From assembly GCA_035634055.1 (NCBI GenBank), contig DASQDR010000048.1, positions 35,492-99,491 of the forward strand: a DNA stretch of 64,000 bases. Direction: 5' to 3'. This stretch comes from Tepidisphaeraceae bacterium. Its GTDB lineage: Bacteria > Planctomycetota > Phycisphaerae > Tepidisphaerales > Tepidisphaeraceae. The first letter of the stretch is position 1; each line of letters opens with the position of its first letter. A program made the translations under genes and the position numbers. The notes below the pieces were generated by a model, which had not been told where the DNA came from, made no database searches, and saw only the letters and a program-made list of their open reading frames with translations. Positions 20,331 through 61,550 of this stretch are shown here, piece by piece.

Positions 20331-20363
20331 GCGGCGGAAAAGCGGGCGGGCGCGGCGGTGCTT

Positions 20364-20434
20364 GGGGATTGAAGATTGATGACTTGAACGGCCGTGCCTC
20401 GCGCCGTTCAAGCTCCAATCCTCAATCTCCAATC
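20364..20434. repeat. Hairpin with heptamer-unit arms (GATTGAR / YTCAATC), likely bidirectional terminator
   Basis: The left arm ggGGATTGAAGATTGATGACTTGAACGGC pairs with the right arm GCCGTTCAAGCTCCAATCCTCAATCTCCAATC. It lies between convergent stops at 20330 and 20443. Confidence 0.7.
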
Positions 20435-20442
20435 GTCACTCA

Positions 20443-23910: not shown

Positions 23911-23918
23911 CGACCGCG

Positions 23919-24014
23919 CCGCATGGCCGCATGGCCGCATGGCCGCATGGCCGCGTGGCCGCGTGGCCGCGTCGGCGCGGTGCGGCATGGGCGCGGTGCC
24001 GCGTTGCCGCCGGG
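23919..24014. repeat. Octanucleotide tandem repeat, about 12 units
   Basis: CCGCATGG x4, CCGCGTGG x2, then degenerating units (CCGCGTCG, GCGCGGTG, CGGCATGG, GCGCGGTG, CCGCGTTG, CCGCCGGG). It lies between convergent stops at 23910 and 24035. Confidence 0.85.
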
Positions 24015-25587: not shown

Positions 25588-26790
25588 TCAGGAGCCGAGC
25601 TGCACGAGCTTTTCCTGTTCCTTCCGGCGGAGCTGTCCGCAGGCGGCGTCGATGTCGCCGCCGCGGCTCTTGCGCACGTGCGCGTTCACGCCGTTGCGCC
25701 GCAGGATTTCCTGGAACGTCACCACGTCCTTCGCCAGCGGGCGCTTGAACGGCAGGCTCGAGACCTCGTTGTAGCGGATCAGGTTGACGTTGGCGCGCAT
25801 CGTCTTGCACAGCCTGCTCAGCTCGCGGGCGTGCTCCGGGCGGTCGTTGACGCCGCTGAGCAGGATGTACTCCAGCGTGATCTCGCGCCCGCTCTTGTCG
25901 AAGTAGTACCGGCAGGCGTCGAGGATGTCCGGCAGGGCGAAGTGCTCCGCCCAGGGGATCAGCTCCCGCCGCAACGGCTCGTTCGGCGCGTGCAGTGACA
26001 GGGCGAGGTTGATCGGCAGATCCTCCTCGGCGAGCTGCCTCATCTTCGCCGGCACCCCCACGGTCGAGATCGTGATCCGCCGCGCCCCCATGTTCAGGCA
26101 CTTGCGGTCGTTCAGGATGCGGACGGCCTGCATGACGCTGGCATAGTTCGCCAACGGCTCGCCCATGCCCATGAAGACGACGTTGGTGATCCGCTCGGAA
26201 GACGAAGGCACGAAGGCACGGAGGCACGGAGGGTGTGATGAGGGACCGAGGGAGGAAGTGAATTCACCTTCTCCCTCCGCGCTGTCTCCACCCCTTCGTG
26301 CCTCCGTGCCTGACGCCTTCGTGCCTTCCGCGAGGGTCTGATTCAACCGATACACCTGCTCCACGATTTGCCCCGCGGAGAGGTTCCCCTTCACGCCGTT
26401 GACGCCGCTGGCGCAGAAGCGGCACTGGACGGGGCAGCCGACCTGGCTGCTCACGCAGGCGGTGCGGCGATCGCCGTCGGGGATCATGACGGTCTCGGCC
26501 TGCGCGCCGTCCGGCCACCCGAGCAGCAGCTTGATCGTGCCGTCGCTGCTGATCTGCCGGGAGACGATGCGCGATGAGGTGATTTCGACGCGCTCGGCGA
26601 GCGCGGCGCGGTCGGCCTTGCTCAGGTTGGACATCGCCTCGGGCGAATCGACCAGCCGCTCGTACGCCCACTGCCGCACCTGCTGCGCGCGGAACGCCGG
26701 CCAGCCCCAGGTCTTCACCAAGGAGTCGAACTCGCGCGGGAGCAGGTCGAGAAAGCGCGTTTTTTGGCTCGGCAGCACGTCCAGAGGCAT
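25588..26790 (-). CDS. rlmN: 23S rRNA/tRNA adenine-C2 methyltransferase RlmN (radical SAM) carrying an insert of about 44 aa
   Basis: Radical-SAM CPVQCRFCASG, ITNVVFMGMGEPL, SLHAPN and C-terminal GGDIDAACGQL. The start at the ATG at 26790 (MPLDVLPSQK) is preferred. Confidence 0.93.
   Translation of the reverse strand: MPLDVLPSQKTRFLDLLPREFDSLVKTWGWPAFRAQQVRQWAYERLVDSPEAMSNLSKADRAALAERVEITSSRIVSRQISSDGTIKLLLGWPDGAQAETVMIPDGDRRTACVSSQVGCPVQCRFCASGVNGVKGNLSAGQIVEQVYRLNQTLAEGTKASGTEARRGGDSAEGEGEFTSSLGPSSHPPCLRAFVPSSSERITNVVFMGMGEPLANYASVMQAVRILNDRKCLNMGARRITISTVGVPAKMRQLAEEDLPINLALSLHAPNEPLRRELIPWAEHFALPDILDACRYYFDKSGREITLEYILLSGVNDRPEHARELSRLCKTMRANVNLIRYNEVSSLPFKRPLAKDVVTFQEILRRNGVNAHVRKSRGGDIDAACGQLRRKEQEKLVQLGS
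26198..26331. repeat. Palindromic octamer-armed element inside rlmN coding sequence (in-frame)
   Basis: Arms of AGGCACGR units and their complement surround a GAATTC-centred core. The 19-nt core 26249-26267 is identical to 47408-47426. Confidence 0.8.
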
Positions 26791-26910
26791 ACCATTTACT
26801 GTACGATGGTGCGGAGCCCTCGGGTCAGACCGTTTTTCGGCCAACTACTCGCCAAATCAGGTTTTGGCGTTGACCGATCGGACGGTAGCTGGTTTGCTGT
26901 GGGGGTGCAA

Positions 26911-34624: not shown

Positions 34625-37600
34625 CTACACGCTGTGGATCATCCGGGCCGACAGGAAAACGAGGTGAACGCGGCTGACGCTCTGCCCGGTAATGCCTTTG
34701 ACCGCCCGGCGGTAAAGTTCCATCTGCGGCTTGTACCGCTCCACCCGCGCGGCGACGGTTTCGGGCGTGACGCGGTCGGTCTTGTAATCGACGATCTCCA
34801 GCCCCGCGGGCGTGGGAACGAGCACGTCGATGCGGCTGCGGACCATCACGCAATCCTCCGGGTCGCCCGAGGCGGGCGCGGACGGATCGAGCTCGTTCGC
34901 CGGCAGCGGGAAGTAGACCGGCAGCTCCCGGCGGACGCGTTTCGCGTGCGCGCGGATGAGCTGTCCGACGGCGCTGCCGACCAGCCAGCAGAGCGATTCG
35001 AGGTCCACGTGGTCCGCCTCGGCGGGCGCGATCAGCCGCTTGTCCGCCAGCCACTGCACCTGCTGCTTCAGGTCATCGATGTCGCACGGCCGGTCGAAGT
35101 CCAGGTGCTGGAGGGCCAGGTGCGTGGCCGAGCCGACGTCGGCGGCGGACGGCTTCACTTCCGTGCGCACCGCGCGCGGCAGCTCGAGCGTGCGGACCCA
35201 ATCGGTTCCCGGCGGCTCGGATGCGCTCGCGCCGTTGCCGTCAGCCCCGCGTGCGCCGCCGCCGCCGCCCCGTGCGCCCCCTGCGCTGCCCGCGCCGTGA
35301 GCCGGGTGCTTCGCCAGCGCCGTCGCCGCCTCGGCGGCCTGGATCCGCGTGAACGGCTGGTGCGGGTACTTCGCCGTCAAGCGGGCGATGATGCGGTCCG
35401 CCTCGTCGCTGGGCGGCGGCGGCGGGTCGAGCGGTTCCAGCCGGGCGAGGCGGCGCTGCCGCTCGCCGTCGGACGGGCGCATCGATTCCGGCGTCGGCCA
35501 CTGCGCGACATCGTCGCTGGCGTGGCGGACGACGCGGATTGGCTCCTGCGCGCCCTCGCCATCGCCGTGGCCGCGCTTGAGGATCGTGGCGACCGGCCCG
35601 AGCCAATCGAGCATGCAGCGCGCCCCGACGACGGCGTCGGCCGGCAGCGGACCGTCGCCGTGGCTTGCCCAGCGCGCCGCCCAGGTGTCGGGCGCGGCCT
35701 CGCGGCACGTGCCGATCAGCACCAGGTGTTCCTTGGCGCGCGTCATCGCCACGTACAGCACGCGCAGCTCCTCGGCCATCGCCTGTTGCCGCAGGCGGTT
35801 TGACACCAGCTTTGAAGCCAGCGACGGGTAGCGCACCTGCTTGGCCTCGTCGACCACTTCCATCCCCAGCCCGCCGTGGCGGTCGAGCAGGATCGGGCCG
35901 GAGCAGTCGCGCACGTTGATCGCCTTGCCGAGGTCCGGCAGGATCACGACGGGGAACTCCAGCCCCTTGCTGCGATGGATGGTCATGATGCGGACGACGT
36001 CTTCACCTTCGCTGGCGACCGACGGTTGGCCGAGGTCCGACTCCTCGCGCAGGCGGTCGAGGAACGCCAGGAAGCGCGCCAGCCCCTGCCGCTGGAAGGA
36101 GCCGAACTGCCGGGCGCGCTCGTGCAGGTCGATGAGGTTCGCCTTGCGCTGCTCCCCGTCGCGCAGGCCGGCGCAGAAGGCGAGGTAGCCGGTGGAGTCG
36201 TACACGTCCCAGATCAGCTCCGCCAGGGGCCGGCGCTGGGCCATGTCGCGCCAGCCGTCGAGCTGCGCCAGCACGTCGCGCAGCTTGGCTGCTAATTCGT
36301 CGTCGTGATCTTTGGCGTAGCGCACGACCGCCTGGTGGAACGGGACTTCCTTGCGGTCGTACGCCAGCCGCACGCGCGCCAGCGCGTCCTCCGCGTCGGG
36401 CAGCGCCGCGAGCGGGCTTCGCAGCAGGCCGGCCAGCGGGATGTCCTGCCGGCGGTTGTCCAGCACCTTCAGCAGGGCCAGGACGTCGCGCACCTCCATC
36501 GAATCGAAGTACCCGCTGCCGCTCTCGCTGTGGGTGGGGATGCCCGCGCCGCGCAGCACCTCGGCGTAGTCGTCCCCCTTGTAGCGCATGGAGCGGAGCA
36601 GCACGACGATGTCGCTGCGCCGGATCGGCCGGGGGGTGAGGATGCCGTCACGATCTTTCTCGATGACGCACATCGGCCGCCCGCCGTCGGCGCCCGTCAT
36701 CTGGCGAACGAGCCGCGCGACGAGCAGCGCTTCGCGCGCGGTGCGGTCCGGCTCGATCGCGTCCGCGCCACTGCCGCCACCACTGCCGCCGTGATCGTCA
36801 ATGCCGGCCTGCGGGTCGGCATCCACGTCGTGCGGCAGCAGGTGAAGCTCGACCGGCGCGCCGGCGAAGCACGACTTGCCGTCGCCGGCGGGGTATTTCA
36901 GCCCCGGCCGCAGCTCGTGCGTGTGGTCGTACTGAAGGTCCGCCGCCTCCTTCGTCATTAGCTTGGTGAAGACCTGGTTCAGCACGTCCAGCAGCGGCGC
37001 GCGGCTGCGGAAGTTGGCCTGGAGGTCCACCACCATCCCACCGCCCGCGCCCGCCCCGCCGCCTTCACGAAAGCGCTCGTGCCGCGCGAGAAACCGCGCC
37101 GGCTCGGCCAGCCGGAACCCGTAAATGCTCTGCTTCACGTCCCCGACGCAGAAAAGGTTGGAGGAGAAGGATGAAGGGGGATCGAGGAAGGATGAATCAG
37201 AAGCACGGCCGTCGGCGGCAGCATTTGTCTTTCCCTCTTCTTCATCCTTCCTCCTTCCGACTTCATCCTTTCCCGCGATTTCATCCCCCACGCACTCGCG
37301 GCTGGCGAGGCGGAGGATCCCGTCCTGCACCTCGTTGATGTCCTGGTACTCGTCGACCAGCACGTGGGCGAACTGCCTGTGCAAGAGGCGGGCGACGCTG
37401 GACGGGCGGTCGGTGTCGCCGTCGCGCAGGGCCTTGAGCGCCAAGCGCTCCAGGTCCGTGAAATCGACGCCGCGTAGCGCCGACTTCTCCTGCTGGTAGC
37501 GCTGCCCGAACGCCTGCACGAGATCGAGGAACAGCTCGGCGTGCGGGCGGACCGAGGCGATGCCTTCGATCCACTGCGCGGTCGTGAACCGCAGCGCCTG

Positions 37601-38617
37601 GCGGATCGGGCCGCACTTGATCTCGTCGCGCACCAGCTCCACCAGCGCCTTGGCCGTCTCCTTGCCCGGCGTGGCGTTGCTGACGGTCGGCAGCTTGGGG
37701 AGCTGGATCTCCGATTCCGCCGCCAGCGCGTCCAGCCCGTCGCTTTGCAGCACGGCCTGCCAGTGCGCGACGATCTGGCGGCAGGATTTGAGGTCTTCGA
37801 CGTACTTCGCGAAGCCGTCCATGCGCGACACGGCCGCGAGCGACGCGTCGCACTGCTGCGCGAGCGCGGCCAGGCGCCGGCGGAGGTCGGCGACGAGCTG
37901 TCGGCCCAGCTCCGATTCCTCCAGCGGCTTGCCCGCCGACACTTCCTCCAGTCGCCGCCGCGCGTCGGTCAGCCACTGCTGCGGATCGACCAGGCTGCCG
38001 AGCAGCTCGTGGGCGTCGATCAGCTTGGCCACCAGCCGCTCGTCGTTCCCCTCCGCGTAGGCGTCCACCAGCGCCTGAAACTGCTCCGACCGCGGCGGCG
38101 CGGCCTCGTACTGCTCCGCGAACAGCTCGCGCGCCACCTCCAGCCGCAGCAGCGCCGCCTCGTCGCCGTCCAGCACCGTGAACGCGGGGTCGAGCCCGAG
38201 CAGGTGGAAGTGCTGGCGGATCAGCTTCGCGCAGAACCCGTGCAGGGTGCTGACCTGCGCCCGATCGATGAGCGCGAGCTGGCGGCTGAGCCGGCGGTCA
38301 TCGGGGCTCCTGGACAGCCGCTCGTGCAGCGCCCGCTCGATGCGCGACTTCATCTCCGCCGCCGCCGCCTCGGTGAACGTCACCACCAGCAGCTCGTCGA
38401 CATCGCACGCCGGCTCGGCGTCGCAGACGAGGTAAGCGCAGCGCGCCGCCAGCACCGCGGTCTTGCCCGACCCGGCCGCCGCGGAGACGAGCAGGCTTTG
38501 GCCCGTCGTGGCGATGCCGGCCCACTGCTCGTCGGTCCAGTTCGTGCCGACCGGCTTGGGCGGGAGCTGGAATTTCACCACGCGGTCGCGCGTCGGCTTC
38601 TTCGCCTTAGTCGCCAT
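34625..38617 (-). CDS. addA: ATP-dependent helicase/nuclease subunit A (AddA/UvrD-like plus PD-(D/E)XK nuclease)
   Basis: Motif I AAAGSGKTAVL, motif II VLVDEYQDIN, motif III FCVGDVKQSIYGFR, motif VI VAMTRAKEHL, and a C-terminal nuclease (IDVLV...IVDYKT). Confidence 0.92.
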   Translation of the reverse strand: MATKAKKPTRDRVVKFQLPPKPVGTNWTDEQWAGIATTGQSLLVSAAAGSGKTAVLAARCAYLVCDAEPACDVDELLVVTFTEAAAAEMKSRIERALHERLSRSPDDRRLSRQLALIDRAQVSTLHGFCAKLIRQHFHLLGLDPAFTVLDGDEAALLRLEVARELFAEQYEAAPPRSEQFQALVDAYAEGNDERLVAKLIDAHELLGSLVDPQQWLTDARRRLEEVSAGKPLEESELGRQLVADLRRRLAALAQQCDASLAAVSRMDGFAKYVEDLKSCRQIVAHWQAVLQSDGLDALAAESEIQLPKLPTVSNATPGKETAKALVELVRDEIKCGPIRQALRFTTAQWIEGIASVRPHAELFLDLVQAFGQRYQQEKSALRGVDFTDLERLALKALRDGDTDRPSSVARLLHRQFAHVLVDEYQDINEVQDGILRLASRECVGDEIAGKDEVGRRKDEEEGKTNAAADGRASDSSFLDPPSSFSSNLFCVGDVKQSIYGFRLAEPARFLARHERFREGGGAGAGGGMVVDLQANFRSRAPLLDVLNQVFTKLMTKEAADLQYDHTHELRPGLKYPAGDGKSCFAGAPVELHLLPHDVDADPQAGIDDHGGSGGGSGADAIEPDRTAREALLVARLVRQMTGADGGRPMCVIEKDRDGILTPRPIRRSDIVVLLRSMRYKGDDYAEVLRGAGIPTHSESGSGYFDSMEVRDVLALLKVLDNRRQDIPLAGLLRSPLAALPDAEDALARVRLAYDRKEVPFHQAVVRYAKDHDDELAAKLRDVLAQLDGWRDMAQRRPLAELIWDVYDSTGYLAFCAGLRDGEQRKANLIDLHERARQFGSFQRQGLARFLAFLDRLREESDLGQPSVASEGEDVVRIMTIHRSKGLEFPVVILPDLGKAINVRDCSGPILLDRHGGLGMEVVDEAKQVRYPSLASKLVSNRLRQQAMAEELRVLYVAMTRAKEHLVLIGTCREAAPDTWAARWASHGDGPLPADAVVGARCMLDWLGPVATILKRGHGDGEGAQEPIRVVRHASDDVAQWPTPESMRPSDGERQRRLARLEPLDPPPPPSDEADRIIARLTAKYPHQPFTRIQAAEAATALAKHPAHGAGSAGGARGGGGGARGADGNGASASEPPGTDWVRTLELPRAVRTEVKPSAADVGSATHLALQHLDFDRPCDIDDLKQQVQWLADKRLIAPAEADHVDLESLCWLVGSAVGQLIRAHAKRVRRELPVYFPLPANELDPSAPASGDPEDCVMVRSRIDVLVPTPAGLEIVDYKTDRVTPETVAARVERYKPQMELYRRAVKGITGQSVSRVHLVFLSARMIHSV
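37160..37288. repeat. Hairpin element (GGATGAA / TTCATCC arms) inserted in-frame in addA
   Basis: AAGGATGAA occurs at 37167 and 37188. TTCATCC occurs at 37241, 37262 and 37280. The 129 nt are AT-richer than the surrounding gene. Confidence 0.7.
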
Positions 38618-47344: not shown

Positions 47345-47523
47345 ATGGGAGGCACGGAGGCACGGAGGCACGGAGGCACGGAGGCACGAAGTGGGTTGAA
47401 GGGGACAAGGGAGGAAGTGAATTCACTCTATCCCTTCTCTCTTATCACTCCCTTCGTGCCTTCGTGCTTCCATTCCCTCCGTCGCTTCGTCCCTCCGTCG
47501 CATCGTCGCTTCTTCCTCCCCCC
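47345..47523. repeat. Intergenic octamer-armed palindromic element (GGAGGCAC)x5 ... GAATTC core ... (CTTCGTGC-type)x9
   Basis: Five perfect GGAGGCAC units at 47348-47387. Core agggaggaagtgaattcac at 47408-47426. Nine 8-nt units at 47452-47523 (cttcgtgc cttcgtgc ttccattc cctccgtc gcttcgtc cctccgtc gcatcgtc gcttcttc ctcccccc). Confidence 0.85.
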
Positions 47524-51135: not shown

Positions 51136-52356
51136 TCAGGCGGCCTGGGGCCACTCGACCTTCGCCCACTGCGATTCGCCCGTGCCGATGCTGTAGCGGA
51201 TGAGGGCGAACTTGCCCTCGTCGCCGTGGTCGGCCACCACCGCCTTCACCACCGCACCGGGGTGCTCGGACAGGAACGCCGCGACGGTGGCCGACGGCAG
51301 ATTGCCCGGGGCCACCTCGTAGCTGTCGAGCTCCACGGTCTCCGATTCCTCGAACGGGTGCGAGCCGGTGAAGGTGAAGCGGGCGTGGTAGACGGCGCCG
51401 TCGCCGTTGTAGCGGTAGAGCATCGTGAAGGTGTGGTCGTCGTTGACGCGCACGCCCACCGGCTCGGAATCCGGGAACGTGTCGACGAACGCCTGGCGGT
51501 AGGTCTCGGGGACGTAAGAGAGGTCGACGGGCACGTAGAGGCGGTCCTCGCCGGCGGTCTGGTCGGCGACGAGGTCGAGGACGGCACCGGGGGCGGTGGC
51601 ATCCTCGGAGGCGAAGTCGTCCTGCCCCGCGCCGCCGGAGAGCGCATCGCTGCCGGCGCCGCCGTCAAGCTGGTCGTCGCCGCGCCCGCCGCCGAGGGCG
51701 TCGTCGCCGGCGCCGCCGACGAGATGGTCGAAGCCGCCGTTGCCGTTGAGGGCGTCGTCGCCGGCGTTTCCGTCGGCGAAGTCGTCGCCCGCGCCGCCGG
51801 TGAGGACGTCGTCGCCGTTGCCGCCGTCGAGGGCGTCGTCGCCGTTGCCGCCGACGAGGGTGTCGTTGCCGTCGCCGCCGGCGATGAGGTCGCGAGCGCT
51901 GCCGCCGACGATGCGATCGTTGCCCGCGCCGCCGTCCACGCGATCGCGCCCGCCGCCGCCGAACAGCACGTCATCGGCGCTGCCGCCGATGATCAGGTCG
52001 TTGCCGCCGCCGCCCAGCACCGTCATCGGCACCGAGATGCCGCCGGCCGCGCCGGAGGCGACCACAACGTGATCGCGCCCGCTGCCGACGTCCACCTGGA
52101 TACCGGCGACGGCCGTGCGGTCGAAGGTGCTCCAGGCGCCGTTGACGTTGACGCGGAGCACGCTGGCGTCGCTGGCGTCGCCGGCGATCAGCACGTGGTC
52201 GCCGGCATCGGTGCCGGTGACGTAAAGCTGCGTGCCCGACAGCGCCGCTGAGAAGAGCCGGCGCGCGGCGAGCGGCTCGATGCGAGCGGCCGGGGCCGGG
52301 AAGTTGGACGACTTGGGCGACTTCGACAACGACGAGGAAGGACGGCGGCGGTTCAT
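51136..52356 (-). CDS. Secreted RTX/hemolysin-type calcium-binding repeat protein
   Basis: N-terminal [12 protein letters not shown] motif and at least 10 GGxGxD nonapeptides ([51 protein letters not shown]...). The ATG at 52356 has GGAG upstream. Confidence 0.88.
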
Positions 52357-61388: not shown

Positions 61389-61550
61389 CGGAGCGCGCCG
61401 ACTCGCGTGTCGTTCCAGCCCGCACTTCGTGCCGGCCTGCCCACTACACCTACTCGCGGAGCGCACGAGTGCCGATTGCTCAGGCGTTGGACGTGGAAGG
61501 CTGACCGCCTTTCCCTTCGTCGCTTCGTCGCTCTGTCTCTCTCCCCTCCC

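What the first reader, a model, noticed from the sequence alone, without database searches (positions are those of the whole stretch)
26198..26331. Palindromic, tandem-octamer-armed element inserted in-frame inside rlmN
Within rlmN (minus strand) a segment of about 132 nt forms a long imperfect hairpin centred on GAATTC (26260-26265). The left arm (26198-26237) is five 8-nt units: gaagacga aggcacga aggcacgg aggcacgg agggtgtg. The right arm (26293-26331) is the complementary series: ccttcgtg cctccgtg cctgacg ccttcgtg ccttccgc. The 19-nt core agggaggaagtgaattcac (26249-26267) is identical to 47408-47426 in an intergenic copy, so this is a repeat family member and not lineage-specific protein sequence. 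Its length is a multiple of 3 and the frame stays open. It adds about 44 aa (EGTKASGTEARRGGDSAEGEGEFTSSLGPSSHPPCLRAFVPSS) between IVEQVYRLNQTL and ERITNVVFMGMGEPL. From memory, RlmN of E. coli has only a short linker at this position. The segment is visibly AT-richer than the gene. In-frame colonisation of conserved genes by hairpin repeats is known for Rickettsia palindromic elements. I am not aware of it being described for a high-GC lineage or for elements with tandem-unit arms.
Basis: partly seen in the sequence, partly recalled or inferred. Interest (0 to 1): 0.82.

Follow-up and report, generated by a model that had tools for sequence, protein, structure and literature searches.

The report
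Hairpin repeat translated inside rlmN
A 132-base hairpin-forming repeat with tandem 8-base arms sits in frame inside the conserved rRNA/tRNA methyltransferase gene rlmN of a soil planctomycete, and the same protein loop holds different hairpin repeats in many related bacteria, so this is a Rickettsia-like "coding palindrome" in a new, GC-rich lineage, at a site that turns over unusually fast.

Summary
Window 26197-26328 (44 codons, minus strand) is a strong imperfect hairpin (-95 kcal/mol, z=-9) with octamer-array arms, lying in frame inside a genuine rlmN. It belongs to a dispersed repeat family. A covariance model built only from other genomes finds exactly three full copies in the window: this one, an intergenic copy (~47362-47482) and a second in-frame copy inside addA (37160-37288). 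The insert lacks the host's codon signature (GC3 0.59 vs 0.95). AlphaFold models it as a disordered loop between helix α1 and strand β2.

The new result is that this linker is the only internal indel site in RlmN. Of the 120 closest orthologues (Tepidisphaeraceae), 48 carry inserts there, from at least five unrelated hairpin families, and the states are scattered almost randomly on the tree. Pairs with 94-95% identical cores carry different families or none. Mfd and AddA show the same same-site recurrence.

The best reading is a selfish or neutral hairpin repeat, translated and tolerated in a permissive loop that is an insertion and replacement hotspot. In-frame palindromes are known (Rickettsia RPEs; intragenic REPs in GC-rich bacteria), so this is a new variant of a known kind. 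How the element moves is unknown.

The parts
25588..26790 (-). rlmN (dual-specificity radical-SAM RNA methyltransferase), 400 aa; the host gene
   Evidence: TIGR00048 380 bits (cutoff 290). 6e-80 to RlmN structure 6fz6. 100% identical to NCBI protein P0001 from a Tepidisphaeraceae MAG.
26197..26328 (-). In-frame hairpin element (family A), 132 nt = 44 codons (EGTKASGTEARRGGDSAEGEGEFTSSLGPSSHPPCLRAFVPSSS), residues 155-198
   Evidence: CM R1, trained on other genomes, hits 26196-26330 at 51.7 bits, E=6e-10. GC3 0.59 vs 0.95 in the rest of the gene. pLDDT 47-68.
26198..26237 (+). Purine-rich arm: about five 8-nt units (GAAGACGA AGGCACGA AGGCACGG AGGCACGG AGGGTGTG)
   Evidence: TRF 26202-26232, period 8, 95% matches.
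26249..26276 (.). Inner near-perfect palindrome AGGGAGGAAGTGAATTCACCTTCTCCCT centred on GAATTC (26260-26265); holds the 19-nt core shared with the intergenic copy
   Evidence: both strands match; apical stem.
26293..26331 (+). Pyrimidine-rich arm: complementary units (CCTTCGTG CCTCCGTG CCTGACG CCTTCGTG CCTTCCGC), one unit shortened to 7 nt
   Evidence: TRF 26293-26328, period 8, 65% matches, 6% indels; inverted repeats I2 and I14.
47345..47500 (.). Intergenic sibling copy (family A), between a recQ-like helicase gene (ends 47335) and a GNAT acetyltransferase gene (starts 47560). Its outer right arm mixes A-type and B-type units.
   Evidence: Fold -102 kcal/mol, z=-8.6. CM R1 39.6 bits. No T-tract terminator.
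37160..37288 (-). Second in-frame hairpin element (family D, AAGGATG-type arms) inside addA/uvrD-like helicase-nuclease (34625-38617, minus strand), between helicase motif II (DEYQD) and motif III (GDVKQSIY)
   Evidence: (I4). GC3 0.51 vs 0.93. CM R1 31.4 bits. Motif II-III spacing is 70 aa vs 21-32 in homologues.
61503..61535 (+). Solo right arm of family B (CGCCTTTCCCTTCGTCGCTTCGTCGCTC), a remnant lying just downstream of a minus-strand gene
   Evidence: Matches the arm shared by L081 and L162.

Best explanation
**What it is.** The segment is one copy of a dispersed, non-coding-derived hairpin repeat. The superfamily has arms made of tandem 7-8-nt units and is found in Tepidisphaeraceae and related Planctomycetota. 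This copy has landed in the one permissive loop of RlmN: the linker between helix α1, which follows the CX3CX2C iron-sulfur motif, and strand β2 (ITNVVFMGMGEP).

**How it survives there.** Its length is 3n and it has no stop codon in the gene's frame, so it is transcribed and translated with the gene. It adds a 44-residue, low-complexity, disordered surface loop that the enzyme tolerates. Being stop-free is largely built into the architecture. The 5' arm is almost T-free and the 3' arm almost A-free, so the arms cannot contain TAA, TAG or TGA.

**The hotspot.** The rlmN linker gains, loses and swaps such hairpins very fast relative to protein divergence. The gene keeps only in-frame outcomes. 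Intergenic copies sit just downstream of genes, as REPs do.

**Shown:** family membership, in-frame status, absence from orthologues, disorder, foreign composition, and recurrent same-site occupation by unrelated families.

**Inferred:** translation of the insert, neutrality, and mobility as the source of new copies.

**Unknown:** the enzyme or mechanism that moves the elements, and why this site is hot.
For: **1. Family membership.**
- The 19-nt core and the octamer arrays are shared with 474xx, and the two copies align over the full length.
- A covariance model built only from L081, L162, L163, L167 and L168 finds 26196-26330 (51.7 bits), 47362-47482 (39.6 bits) and 37163-37274 (31.4 bits). 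Nothing else scores above 20 bits.

**2. Not ancestral protein sequence.**
- 72 of the 120 closest RlmN have a ~5-aa linker.
- More distant Phycisphaerae also have short linkers, and solved RlmN structures have ~7 aa there.

**3. Foreign composition.**
- GC3 is 0.59 in the insert vs 0.95 in rlmN, and 0.51 vs 0.93 in addA.

**4. Tolerated loop.**
- AF2 mean pLDDT is 88, with the insert at 47-68 and no secondary structure, between helix 139-164 and strand 203-209.
- This linker is the only internal indel site in the RlmN alignment.

**5. The reading frame is maintained.**
- Family B elements are open in 6 of 6 frames, with T-free and A-free arms.
- In 4 of 4 coding copies of family C, the single heptamer unit whose xGA falls in frame reads CGA, while out-of-frame units keep TGA.

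**6. Repeated events, not drift.**
- Flanks of L081, L082 and L083 are 88-90% identical, but their inserts are at shuffled-sequence level (0.47-0.62 vs 0.47).
- L166 (D) and L168 (B) have ~93% identical flanks up to fixed boundaries, with a completely different hairpin between them.
- Fitch parsimony gives 28-33 presence/absence changes and 36-40 family changes on 120 tips, close to permuted labels (38 and 46).

**7. The same families occur in other genes.**
- Family B is in mfd (L162), with a 48-nt arm identical to the L081 rlmN copy. Family C is in both rlmN and mfd of L165. Family D is in addA of this window.

**8. Precedent.**
- RPEs and intragenic REPs behave this way (PMC10969869; PMC3733652).
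Against: - No transposase, target-site duplication, conserved target motif or clean empty-site footprint was found. Mobility is inferred from distribution only.
- Occupancy of the rlmN linker is 40% of orthologues, with near-random turnover. That is much higher than random insertion plus a selection filter would predict. Some targeting, homing to existing hairpins, or a selective benefit is needed and remains unexplained.
- Translation of the insert has not been observed directly.
- This exact sequence comes from a single MAG assembly. P0001 has one member on one contig, and no reads were available.
- The opposite orientation of the shared centre motif in L167 versus L081 could reflect independent insertion. 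It could also be a flip by recombination between the arms.
Confidence: 0.75

Rival explanations
1. A single ancient insertion happened in the ancestor of the clade. The arms then diverged in place by concerted evolution (slippage plus arm-to-arm correction), and the insert was lost many times. On this view the 'families' are divergent descendants of one event rather than separate insertions.
For: - Families A, B and D share a centre motif G[AG]AAGACA at the same relative position (0.40-0.44), against a background of 2.2e-5 per nt.
- Their units all contain GAAG.
- The intergenic window copy mixes A-type and B-type units in one arm, so units can interconvert.
Against: - Genes with 94-95% identical cores and ~93% identical flanking DNA carry unalignable inserts (B vs D, E vs empty).
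- Families C and E share nothing with A, B or D.
- The same families, and even an identical 48-nt arm, occur in different genes and genomes.
- Outgroup Phycisphaerae are empty.
Confidence: 0.07
2. The hairpin or the loop is functional and selected at this site. One possibility is an mRNA roadblock that pauses ribosomes about 30 codons after the CX3CX2C motif, giving time for Fe-S cluster loading or folding. Others are a structure that tunes rlmN expression, or a flexible protein loop that alters substrate handling.
For: - Occupancy is very high (48 of 120) at one site.
- The insert begins about 28 codons after the last cluster cysteine.
- Very stable RNA structure (-95 kcal/mol) lies inside a coding region.
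- Hairpins also sit at domain boundaries of Mfd.
Against: - 60% of close relatives, and all distant ones, lack any insert.
- Presence is almost phylogenetically random.
- Identical elements lie in intergenic DNA.
- The window copy is a decayed hairpin, 73% complementary with indels. That argues against maintenance of structure.
Confidence: 0.1
3. The insert is an assembly artefact: a metagenomic mis-join or collapsed repeat placed a dispersed repeat inside rlmN.
For: - The sequence is a dispersed repeat, which assemblers handle poorly.
- This exact protein is known from one MAG contig only.
Against: - Both flanks are contiguous rlmN in the same frame.
- Dozens of independent assemblies from JGI, ENA, NCBI and Logan show analogous in-frame hairpins at exactly this site, including family A in L163.
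- A mis-join would not return to the same gene in frame.
Confidence: 0.02
4. The insert is present in the DNA but is not part of the mature protein. It would be removed or bypassed at the RNA or translation level, for example by processing of the hairpin or by translational hopping.
For: - The stem-loop is extremely stable, and the take-off and landing regions would be brought together at its base.
Against: - Length is always a multiple of 3 and the frame is open in every full-length orthologue.
- The TGA-to-CGA change occurs exactly at in-frame units in family C. That would be unnecessary if the segment were skipped.
- No known bacterial mRNA religation pathway exists (own knowledge).
Confidence: 0.03

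Closest known systems
Rickettsia palindromic elements (RPE-1 to RPE-10; Ogata et al. 2000, 2002; summarised in PMC10969869)
   Same: - Dispersed ~100-150-nt palindromic repeats found both between genes and in frame inside unrelated conserved genes.
- They encode extra peptide segments compatible with the protein fold.
- Copies decay over time.
   Different: - The host here is a free-living, 65-70% GC planctomycete, not an AT-rich reduced intracellular genome.
- The arms are tandem arrays of 7-8-nt units.
- Many unrelated families use the same site.
- The site turns over rapidly, instead of holding vertically inherited insertions.
- No sequence relationship to RPEs was tested.
Intragenic REPs of the GTAG/CGTC superfamilies, linked to RAYT transposases (Di Nocera et al. 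2013, PMC3733652)
   Same: - In-frame palindromic repeats in GC-rich bacteria, including the PVC member Opitutus terrae.
- Hosts are enriched in DNA-repair and RNA-modification genes (UvrD/Rep helicases, RecBCD, UvrA, TruB), which parallels addA, mfd and rlmN here.
- Intergenic copies lie just downstream of genes.
   Different: - REPs are 20-40-nt stem-loops with an unpaired GTAG or CGTC tag and encode 20-30 aa as dimers.
- The elements here are 70-135-nt single hairpins with tandem-unit arms and no terminal tag.
- Association with a RAYT gene could not be examined.
- The family E inserts in L082 and L161 do look like short REP doublets (CCGGACTC...GAGTCCGG).
Bacterial MITEs found inside genes (ERIC, BOX, Correia, Coxiella QMITE; PMC10969869, PMC5896051)
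   Same: - Small non-autonomous repeats with inverted termini that can create in-frame fusions.
   Different: - No target-site duplication, no defined terminal inverted repeats distinct from the body, and no cognate IS was identified.
- The whole element is one hairpin.
Coding palindromes in Nematomorpha mitochondrial genes (PMC6649704)
   Same: - Long hairpins embedded in translated genes.
- Gains and losses are dynamic.
- Arm-to-arm conversion has been proposed.
   Different: - In Nematomorpha both arms encode conserved protein sequence and the repeats are perfect.
- Here the arms encode dispensable low-complexity loops, and the elements are dispersed copies of shared families.
Palindromically arranged simple repeats: (A)n-TATA-(T)n elements of Fusarium mtDNA (PMC7218506) and cyanobacterial STRR heptamer arrays (recalled from memory, not checked)
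   Same: - Arms are built from tandem short units arranged as an inverted pair.
- Length varies by slippage.
- Presence is optional between close relatives.
   Different: - Those are organellar or cyanobacterial, and essentially intergenic.
- The units are mononucleotides, or heptamers not generally paired as hairpins.

Membership tests
RlmN (host gene) | Match to the RlmN equivalog model above its curated cutoff, plus the radical-SAM CX3CX2C motif | tested here: met
   TIGR00048 scores 380.1 bits against a cutoff of 290. CPVQCRFC is present. E=6e-80 to the RlmN structure 6fz6.
RPE-like protein-coding palindromes (functional class) | The same repeat family is present both in intergenic DNA and inside genes | tested here: met
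   CM R1 hits the rlmN insert, the addA insert and the intergenic copy at 47362-47482. It also hits intergenic copies L167 5052-5241 and L001 16542-16643.
RPE-like protein-coding palindromes (functional class) | The insertion keeps the host reading frame, and orthologues lack the segment | tested here: met
   The insert is 44 codons with no stop. 72 of 120 orthologues have a ~5-aa linker.
RPE-like protein-coding palindromes (functional class) | The insert lies in a surface or loop position compatible with the fold | tested here: met
   In the AF2 model the core has pLDDT above 90. The insert has pLDDT 47-68 and is unstructured, between helix 139-164 and strand 203-209.
Rickettsia RPE families proper | Sequence homology to the RPE-1 to RPE-10 consensus sequences | not tested
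The host phylum, base composition and arm architecture make membership unlikely. Filed as 'works like', not 'is a member'.
REP (GTAG/CGTC-tagged) elements | A 20-40-nt stem-loop with a conserved unpaired GTAG or CGTC tetranucleotide at one end | tested here: not met
   The element is a 132-nt single hairpin whose termini are GAAGG...CCTTC. There is no GTAG or CTAC, and CGTC occurs only inside the arm units.
REP (GTAG/CGTC-tagged) elements | A cognate RAYT (Y1 HUH transposase) gene flanked by the repeats | not testable with these tools
   This needs the whole genome. Only 64 kb plus 20-kb loci were held, and the genome scan was exhausted.
MITE | Target-site duplication flanking the element | tested here: not met
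   No direct repeats appear at the junctions of 12 rlmN inserts. Filled and empty alleles differ by replacement of the whole linker.
MITE | A related autonomous IS with matching terminal inverted repeats | not testable with these tools
   No whole genome was available. No transposase lies next to any copy in the loci examined.
Known structured RNA families (Rfam 15) | A score at or above a family's gathering threshold | tested here: not met
   The only matches are generic long-hairpin hits to eukaryotic miRNA precursors at 20-41 bits, against gathering scores of 62-200.

The most novel reading that the evidence does not exclude
Tepidisphaerales would carry a previously undescribed class of mobile hairpin elements, defined by arms of tandem 7-8-nt units around a conserved centre. 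These elements would not insert at random. They would home to a small set of sites, or to pre-existing hairpins, inside housekeeping genes (rlmN, mfd, addA). Repeated insertion, imprecise excision and cassette-like replacement would make those protein loops hypervariable on very short evolutionary timescales. This would imply a structure- or site-directed ssDNA/hairpin transposition or templated-repair mechanism that has not been characterised.
Probability: 0.3. Interest if true: 0.8.

Novelty: new variant of a known kind. Interest (0 to 1): 0.66.

Why it matters
- **Extends a known phenomenon.** It shows that the Rickettsia phenomenon of selfish palindromes translated inside essential genes also operates in a free-living, GC-rich phylum, with a different element architecture.
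- **Offers a natural experiment.** One 15-nt linker in a universal enzyme has been filled, emptied and refilled dozens of times by unrelated hairpins. That makes two long-standing questions testable by comparative and population genomics: how REP-like hairpins move, and why they favour DNA-repair and RNA-modification genes.
- **Has practical consequences.**
  - These elements inflate and distort protein predictions. Public databases hold many domain-less short ORFs and N-terminal extensions that match their arm peptides and look like translated hairpins.
  - They create false lineage-specific insertions in alignments of marker genes.
  - They mark permissive loops where RlmN, Mfd and AddA appear to tolerate inserts of about 25-80 residues.

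Tried and rejected
2. **RNAfold-based sliding hairpin detectors.** These were hopelessly non-specific in 68% GC DNA. I replaced them with a Watson-Crick 'tandem array plus its reverse-complement array' detector and a covariance model.
3. **phmmer of the 44-aa insert peptide against 1.84 billion representatives.** It returned only two unrelated tandem-repeat proteins, so it gave no census of host genes.
4. **Synthetic periodic arm-peptide query.** It found about 280 proteins, mostly short domain-less ORFs laid over intergenic hairpins or N-terminal over-extensions (pilin-like N_methyl proteins, CarA). This shows the element type is widespread, but it is not a clean list of in-frame hosts.
5. 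**Target-site duplication, common target motif or excision footprint.** None was found.
6. **Host GTCGTCTTC (codons NVVF), 18 nt downstream, as microhomology guiding the arms.** Filled and empty alleles do not differ consistently there. I dropped the idea.
7. **Orientation bias ('purine-rich arm first').** This is trivial, because a palindrome reads the same on both strands.
8. **Intergenic copy as an intrinsic terminator.** There is no T-tract.
9. **Rfam.** No family matched.
10. **Literature search for cyanobacterial STRR hairpins.** Uninformative. That comparison rests on memory.
Full report
**1. The observation.** The window holds a minus-strand ORF, 25588-26844, whose annotated form (25588-26790, 400 aa) is RlmN. 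It scores 380 bits against TIGR00048 (cutoff 290) and matches RlmN structure 6fz6 at E=6e-80. It is 100% identical to an NCBI protein from a Tepidisphaeraceae MAG.

Inside it, 26190-26340 folds into one long imperfect stem-loop centred on GAATTC. The MFE is -95.3 kcal/mol, with z = -8.97 against dinucleotide shuffles. The arms are period-8 arrays: 26202-26232 at 95% matches, and 26293-26328 at 65% matches with an indel. The 19-nt core recurs exactly at 47408-47426, and the octamer pattern occurs 8 times against 0.03 expected, only at these two places. The two copies align over their whole length.

The insert is exactly 44 codons (window 26197-26328, residues 155-198) and is stop-free. Solved RlmN and Cfr structures have about 7 residues at this position.

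**2. It is a repeat, not protein sequence.** Three results support this.
- *Composition.* GC at codon positions 1/2/3 is 0.61/0.70/0.59 in the insert and 0.64/0.44/0.95 in the rest of rlmN. The insert has none of the host's coding signature.
- *Orthologues.* Of the 120 closest RlmN proteins (64-77% identity, mostly Tepidisphaeraceae from soil metagenomes), 72 have a ~5-aa linker such as APRGE. More distant Phycisphaerae are also short.
- *An independent model.* A covariance model was built only from elements of other genomes (L081, L162, L163, L167, L168). It finds three full members in the 64-kb window: 26196-26330 (51.7 bits, E=6e-10), 47362-47482 (39.6 bits) and 37163-37274 (31.4 bits). Scores then drop to 20 bits or less.

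Rfam has no matching family.

**3. A second in-frame copy in the same window.** The hit at 37163-37274 lies inside a 1330-aa AddA/UvrD-type helicase-nuclease (34625-38617, minus strand; PF00580 at 1.8e-50, PF13361, PF12705). It encodes GDEIAGKDEVGRRKDEEEGKTNAAADGRASDSSFLDPPSSFSS between helicase motif II (DEYQD) and motif III (GDVKQSIY). Its GC3 is 0.51, against 0.93 for the gene. Homologues have 21-32 aa between these motifs; the window has 70. Five other homologues carry unrelated 48-83-aa inserts at the same place.

So two of the three full copies in this window are translated parts of conserved genes. The third lies between a recQ-like gene and a GNAT gene. It folds at -102 kcal/mol and has no T-tract. 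A solo family-B arm lies at 61503-61535.

**4. The rlmN linker is a hotspot.** This is the main new result.
- *One site only.* The RlmN alignment has a single internal indel site, and 48 of 120 sequences carry extra residues there.
- *Several insert families.* The inserts fall into families that are translations of different tandem-unit hairpins. Counts are; unit sequences are.

| Family | Peptide signature | DNA unit | Sequences |
|---|---|---|---|
| A | EGTKA...CLRAFVP | GAAGGCAC | 3 |
| B | SDEATKRRSDE...SSLRRSVASS | GAAGCGAC | 7 |
| C | GSGFRVQGSG...LNPEPRTLNP | AGGGTTC | 12 |
| D | KDEGGRMKDE...SSFILHPSSF | AAGGATG | 8 |
| E | REP-like (DRARDGAG...) | short GC-rich palindromes | 4 |
| other | various | | 14 |

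- *DNA confirmation.* Loci L081, L083 and L163-L168 hold near-perfect hairpins of -38 to -110 kcal/mol.
- *Distribution on the tree.* States are scattered. Fitch parsimony needs 28-33 presence/absence changes and 36-40 family changes, close to permuted labels (38 and 46).
- *Close pairs differ.* Pairs with 94-95% identical cores have different states: P0051 (D) vs P0049 (B); P0007 (E) vs the empty P0015 and P0019; P0012 (D) vs P0002 (B); P0034 (C) vs the empty P0044.
- *Nucleotide level.* L081, L082 and L083 have 88-90% identical flanks, but their inserts are no more alike than shuffled sequence. L166 and L168 are ~93% identical right up to ...AATCAGATT(C/T)TGAA and again from CGCATCACCAAC..., with a D hairpin in one and a B hairpin in the other.

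The linker therefore behaves as a cassette with fixed boundaries. I saw no target-site duplication and no clean footprint.

**5. The same happens in mfd.** On contigs that carry rlmN, mfd holds family B in L162 and family C in L165 at one site (GYLHRGF-WEG | LLGHHELFHRYE). L107 holds family C at a second site (RLAEG | LIVAPIQALM). Other copies are empty at these sites. The 48-nt right arm of the L162 mfd element is identical to that of the L081 rlmN element, which is a different genome and a different gene.

Families A, B and D share a centre motif G[AG]AAGACA at the same relative position, against a background of 2.2e-5 per nt. In L167 the motif is in the reverse orientation. The window's intergenic copy mixes A-type and B-type units in one arm. 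A, B and D therefore form one superfamily with fast-evolving arms. C and E are separate.

**6. Why the gene survives.** AlphaFold2, run with 85 homologues, models the enzyme confidently (mean pLDDT 88, pTM 0.87). The insert has pLDDT 47-68 and no secondary structure, between helix 139-164 and strand 203-209. From established knowledge of radical-SAM partial TIM barrels, the α1-β2 loop lies on the face opposite the cluster and SAM site. This point is an inference; I did not measure it.

The architecture itself limits stop codons. Family B arms are T-free on the 5' side and A-free on the 3' side, and those elements are open in 6 of 6 frames. Family A copies are open in 2-4 frames; the rlmN copy is open in 3. 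Where the unit can form a stop, selection is visible. In all four coding copies of family C, the one heptamer unit whose xGA is in frame reads CGA, while the out-of-frame units keep TGA. This argues that the inserts are read by ribosomes.

**7. Mechanism.** The best-supported explanation (about 0.75) has four parts.
- The insert is a copy of a dispersed hairpin repeat.
- It is translated as a dispensable disordered loop.
- It is neutral or slightly deleterious.
- It sits at a site that repeatedly gains, loses and swaps hairpins.

What moves the elements is unknown. Occupancy of 40% at a 15-nt site, with near-random turnover, is hard to reconcile with random insertion plus filtering. Some targeting, whether to the site, to a DNA structure or to resident hairpins, is likely.

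The rivals are these, each with its confidence and the main evidence bearing on it.
- *One ancient insertion that diverged in place (0.07).* Contradicted.
- *A selected function (0.10).* An example would be ribosome pausing about 28 codons after the Fe-S motif. The absence of the insert from most relatives and the decay of this copy argue against it.
- *An assembly artefact (0.02).* Many independent assemblies show the same phenomenon, although no reads were available for this MAG.
- *Removal or bypass of the insert (0.03).* argues against it.

**8. Comparison with what is known.** The closest analogues are the Rickettsia RPEs (PMC10969869) and the intragenic GTAG/CGTC REPs of GC-rich bacteria (PMC3733652). 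The REP hosts are enriched in UvrD/Rep, RecBCD, UvrA and RNA-modification genes, a striking parallel to addA, mfd and rlmN.

The elements here fail the REP definition: there is no terminal tag and they are 70-135-nt single hairpins. They also show no MITE target-site duplication. RPE sequence homology was not tested. Nematomorpha coding palindromes (PMC6649704) and Fusarium (A)n/(T)n palindromes (PMC7218506) are more distant analogies.

I found no description of hairpins with tandem-unit arms in Planctomycetota. I also found none of rapid multi-family turnover at one site of a housekeeping gene. Hence the verdict: a new variant of a known kind.

**9. Wider occurrence.** I queried with a synthetic periodic sequence made from the arm peptides. 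This works because an 8-nt unit read in three frames gives one cyclic 8-aa peptide. The query retrieved about 280 database proteins. Most are short domain-less ORFs or N-terminal over-extensions, for example of pilin-like N_methyl proteins and CarA. Of the best 120, 48 contain both arm types. Such hairpins are therefore widespread and frequently mis-annotated. Related one-armed arrays appear even in Burkholderia (P0259, P0271).

Noticed in passing
window 37160-37288 (inside addA, 34625-38617, minus strand): A second in-frame hairpin element (AAGGATG-type arms) encodes 43 aa between helicase motifs II and III of an AddA/UvrD-like helicase-nuclease. Five homologues carry unrelated inserts at the same site.
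   Followed up: yes
L162 12442-12553; L165 9137-9212; L107 3505-3612: mfd (transcription-repair coupling factor) of relatives carries in-frame hairpins of families B and C. Two different families occupy the same site, and there is a second site in L107. The 48-nt arm in L162 mfd is identical to the L081 rlmN copy.
   Followed up: partly
window 23918-24010: A tandem array of (GCCGCATG/GCCGCGTG)n, about 11 units, lies between two convergent genes. It is an octamer array without an obvious complementary arm.
   Followed up: no
window 17490-17585 and 20360-20440: Two further intergenic hairpins have tandem-unit arms of other sequence: CACGAATGGA x2 / CATTCGTG x3, and GATTGAAG-type / CTCCAATC-type. 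No spanning ORF has host-like GC3.
   Followed up: partly
window 61503-61535: A solo right arm of family B (CGCCTTTCCCTTCGTCGCTTCGTCGCTC) lies just downstream of a minus-strand gene. It is a half-element remnant.
   Followed up: partly
window 47440-47515: The outer right arm of the intergenic copy switches from A-type units (CCTTCGTG) to B-type units (CCTCCGTCGC / TTCGTC). Unit types therefore mix within one element.
   Followed up: partly
L082 and L161, rlmN linker: Family E inserts are not tandem-armed hairpins. They are REP-like short GC-rich palindromes (for example CCGGACTC-TAC-GAGTCCGG and GCGGAC-GCA-GTCCGC), so the same linker is used by a second class of repeat. L085 carries only a 23-nt mini-hairpin there.
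   Followed up: no
L001 592-662, 1260-1332, 16548-16637, 17752-17813; L161 5360-5477; L167 5052-5241: Intergenic tandem-armed hairpins with yet other units (GATGAACGCG, AATGCAA, ACACAGAG, CTGAGTG, CGAAATC) occur in relatives, including a genome whose rlmN site is empty. L167's copy has composite CACAGAGA + GGCACGGA arms.
   Followed up: partly
proteins P0243-P0362: Public databases hold many short 'hypothetical proteins' and N-terminal extensions (of N_methyl pilin-like proteins, CarA, and an MlaE-MlaF fusion) whose sequences match the arm peptides and look like translated hairpins. One hit may be an in-frame insert in sucD (P0299). One-armed (GACGAAGC)n arrays occur in Burkholderia (P0259, P0271).
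   Followed up: partly
proteins P0121-P0240: The closest AddA homologues in the protein collection are all fragments of 180-540 aa, even on contigs above 100 kb, although AddA is about 1300 aa. The cause is unknown (split gene calls or database truncation).
   Followed up: no
window 51629-52014: A long 27-nt-period tandem repeat of about 11-14 copies at ~70% identity, GC-rich. It is presumably a 9-aa protein repeat.
   Followed up: no
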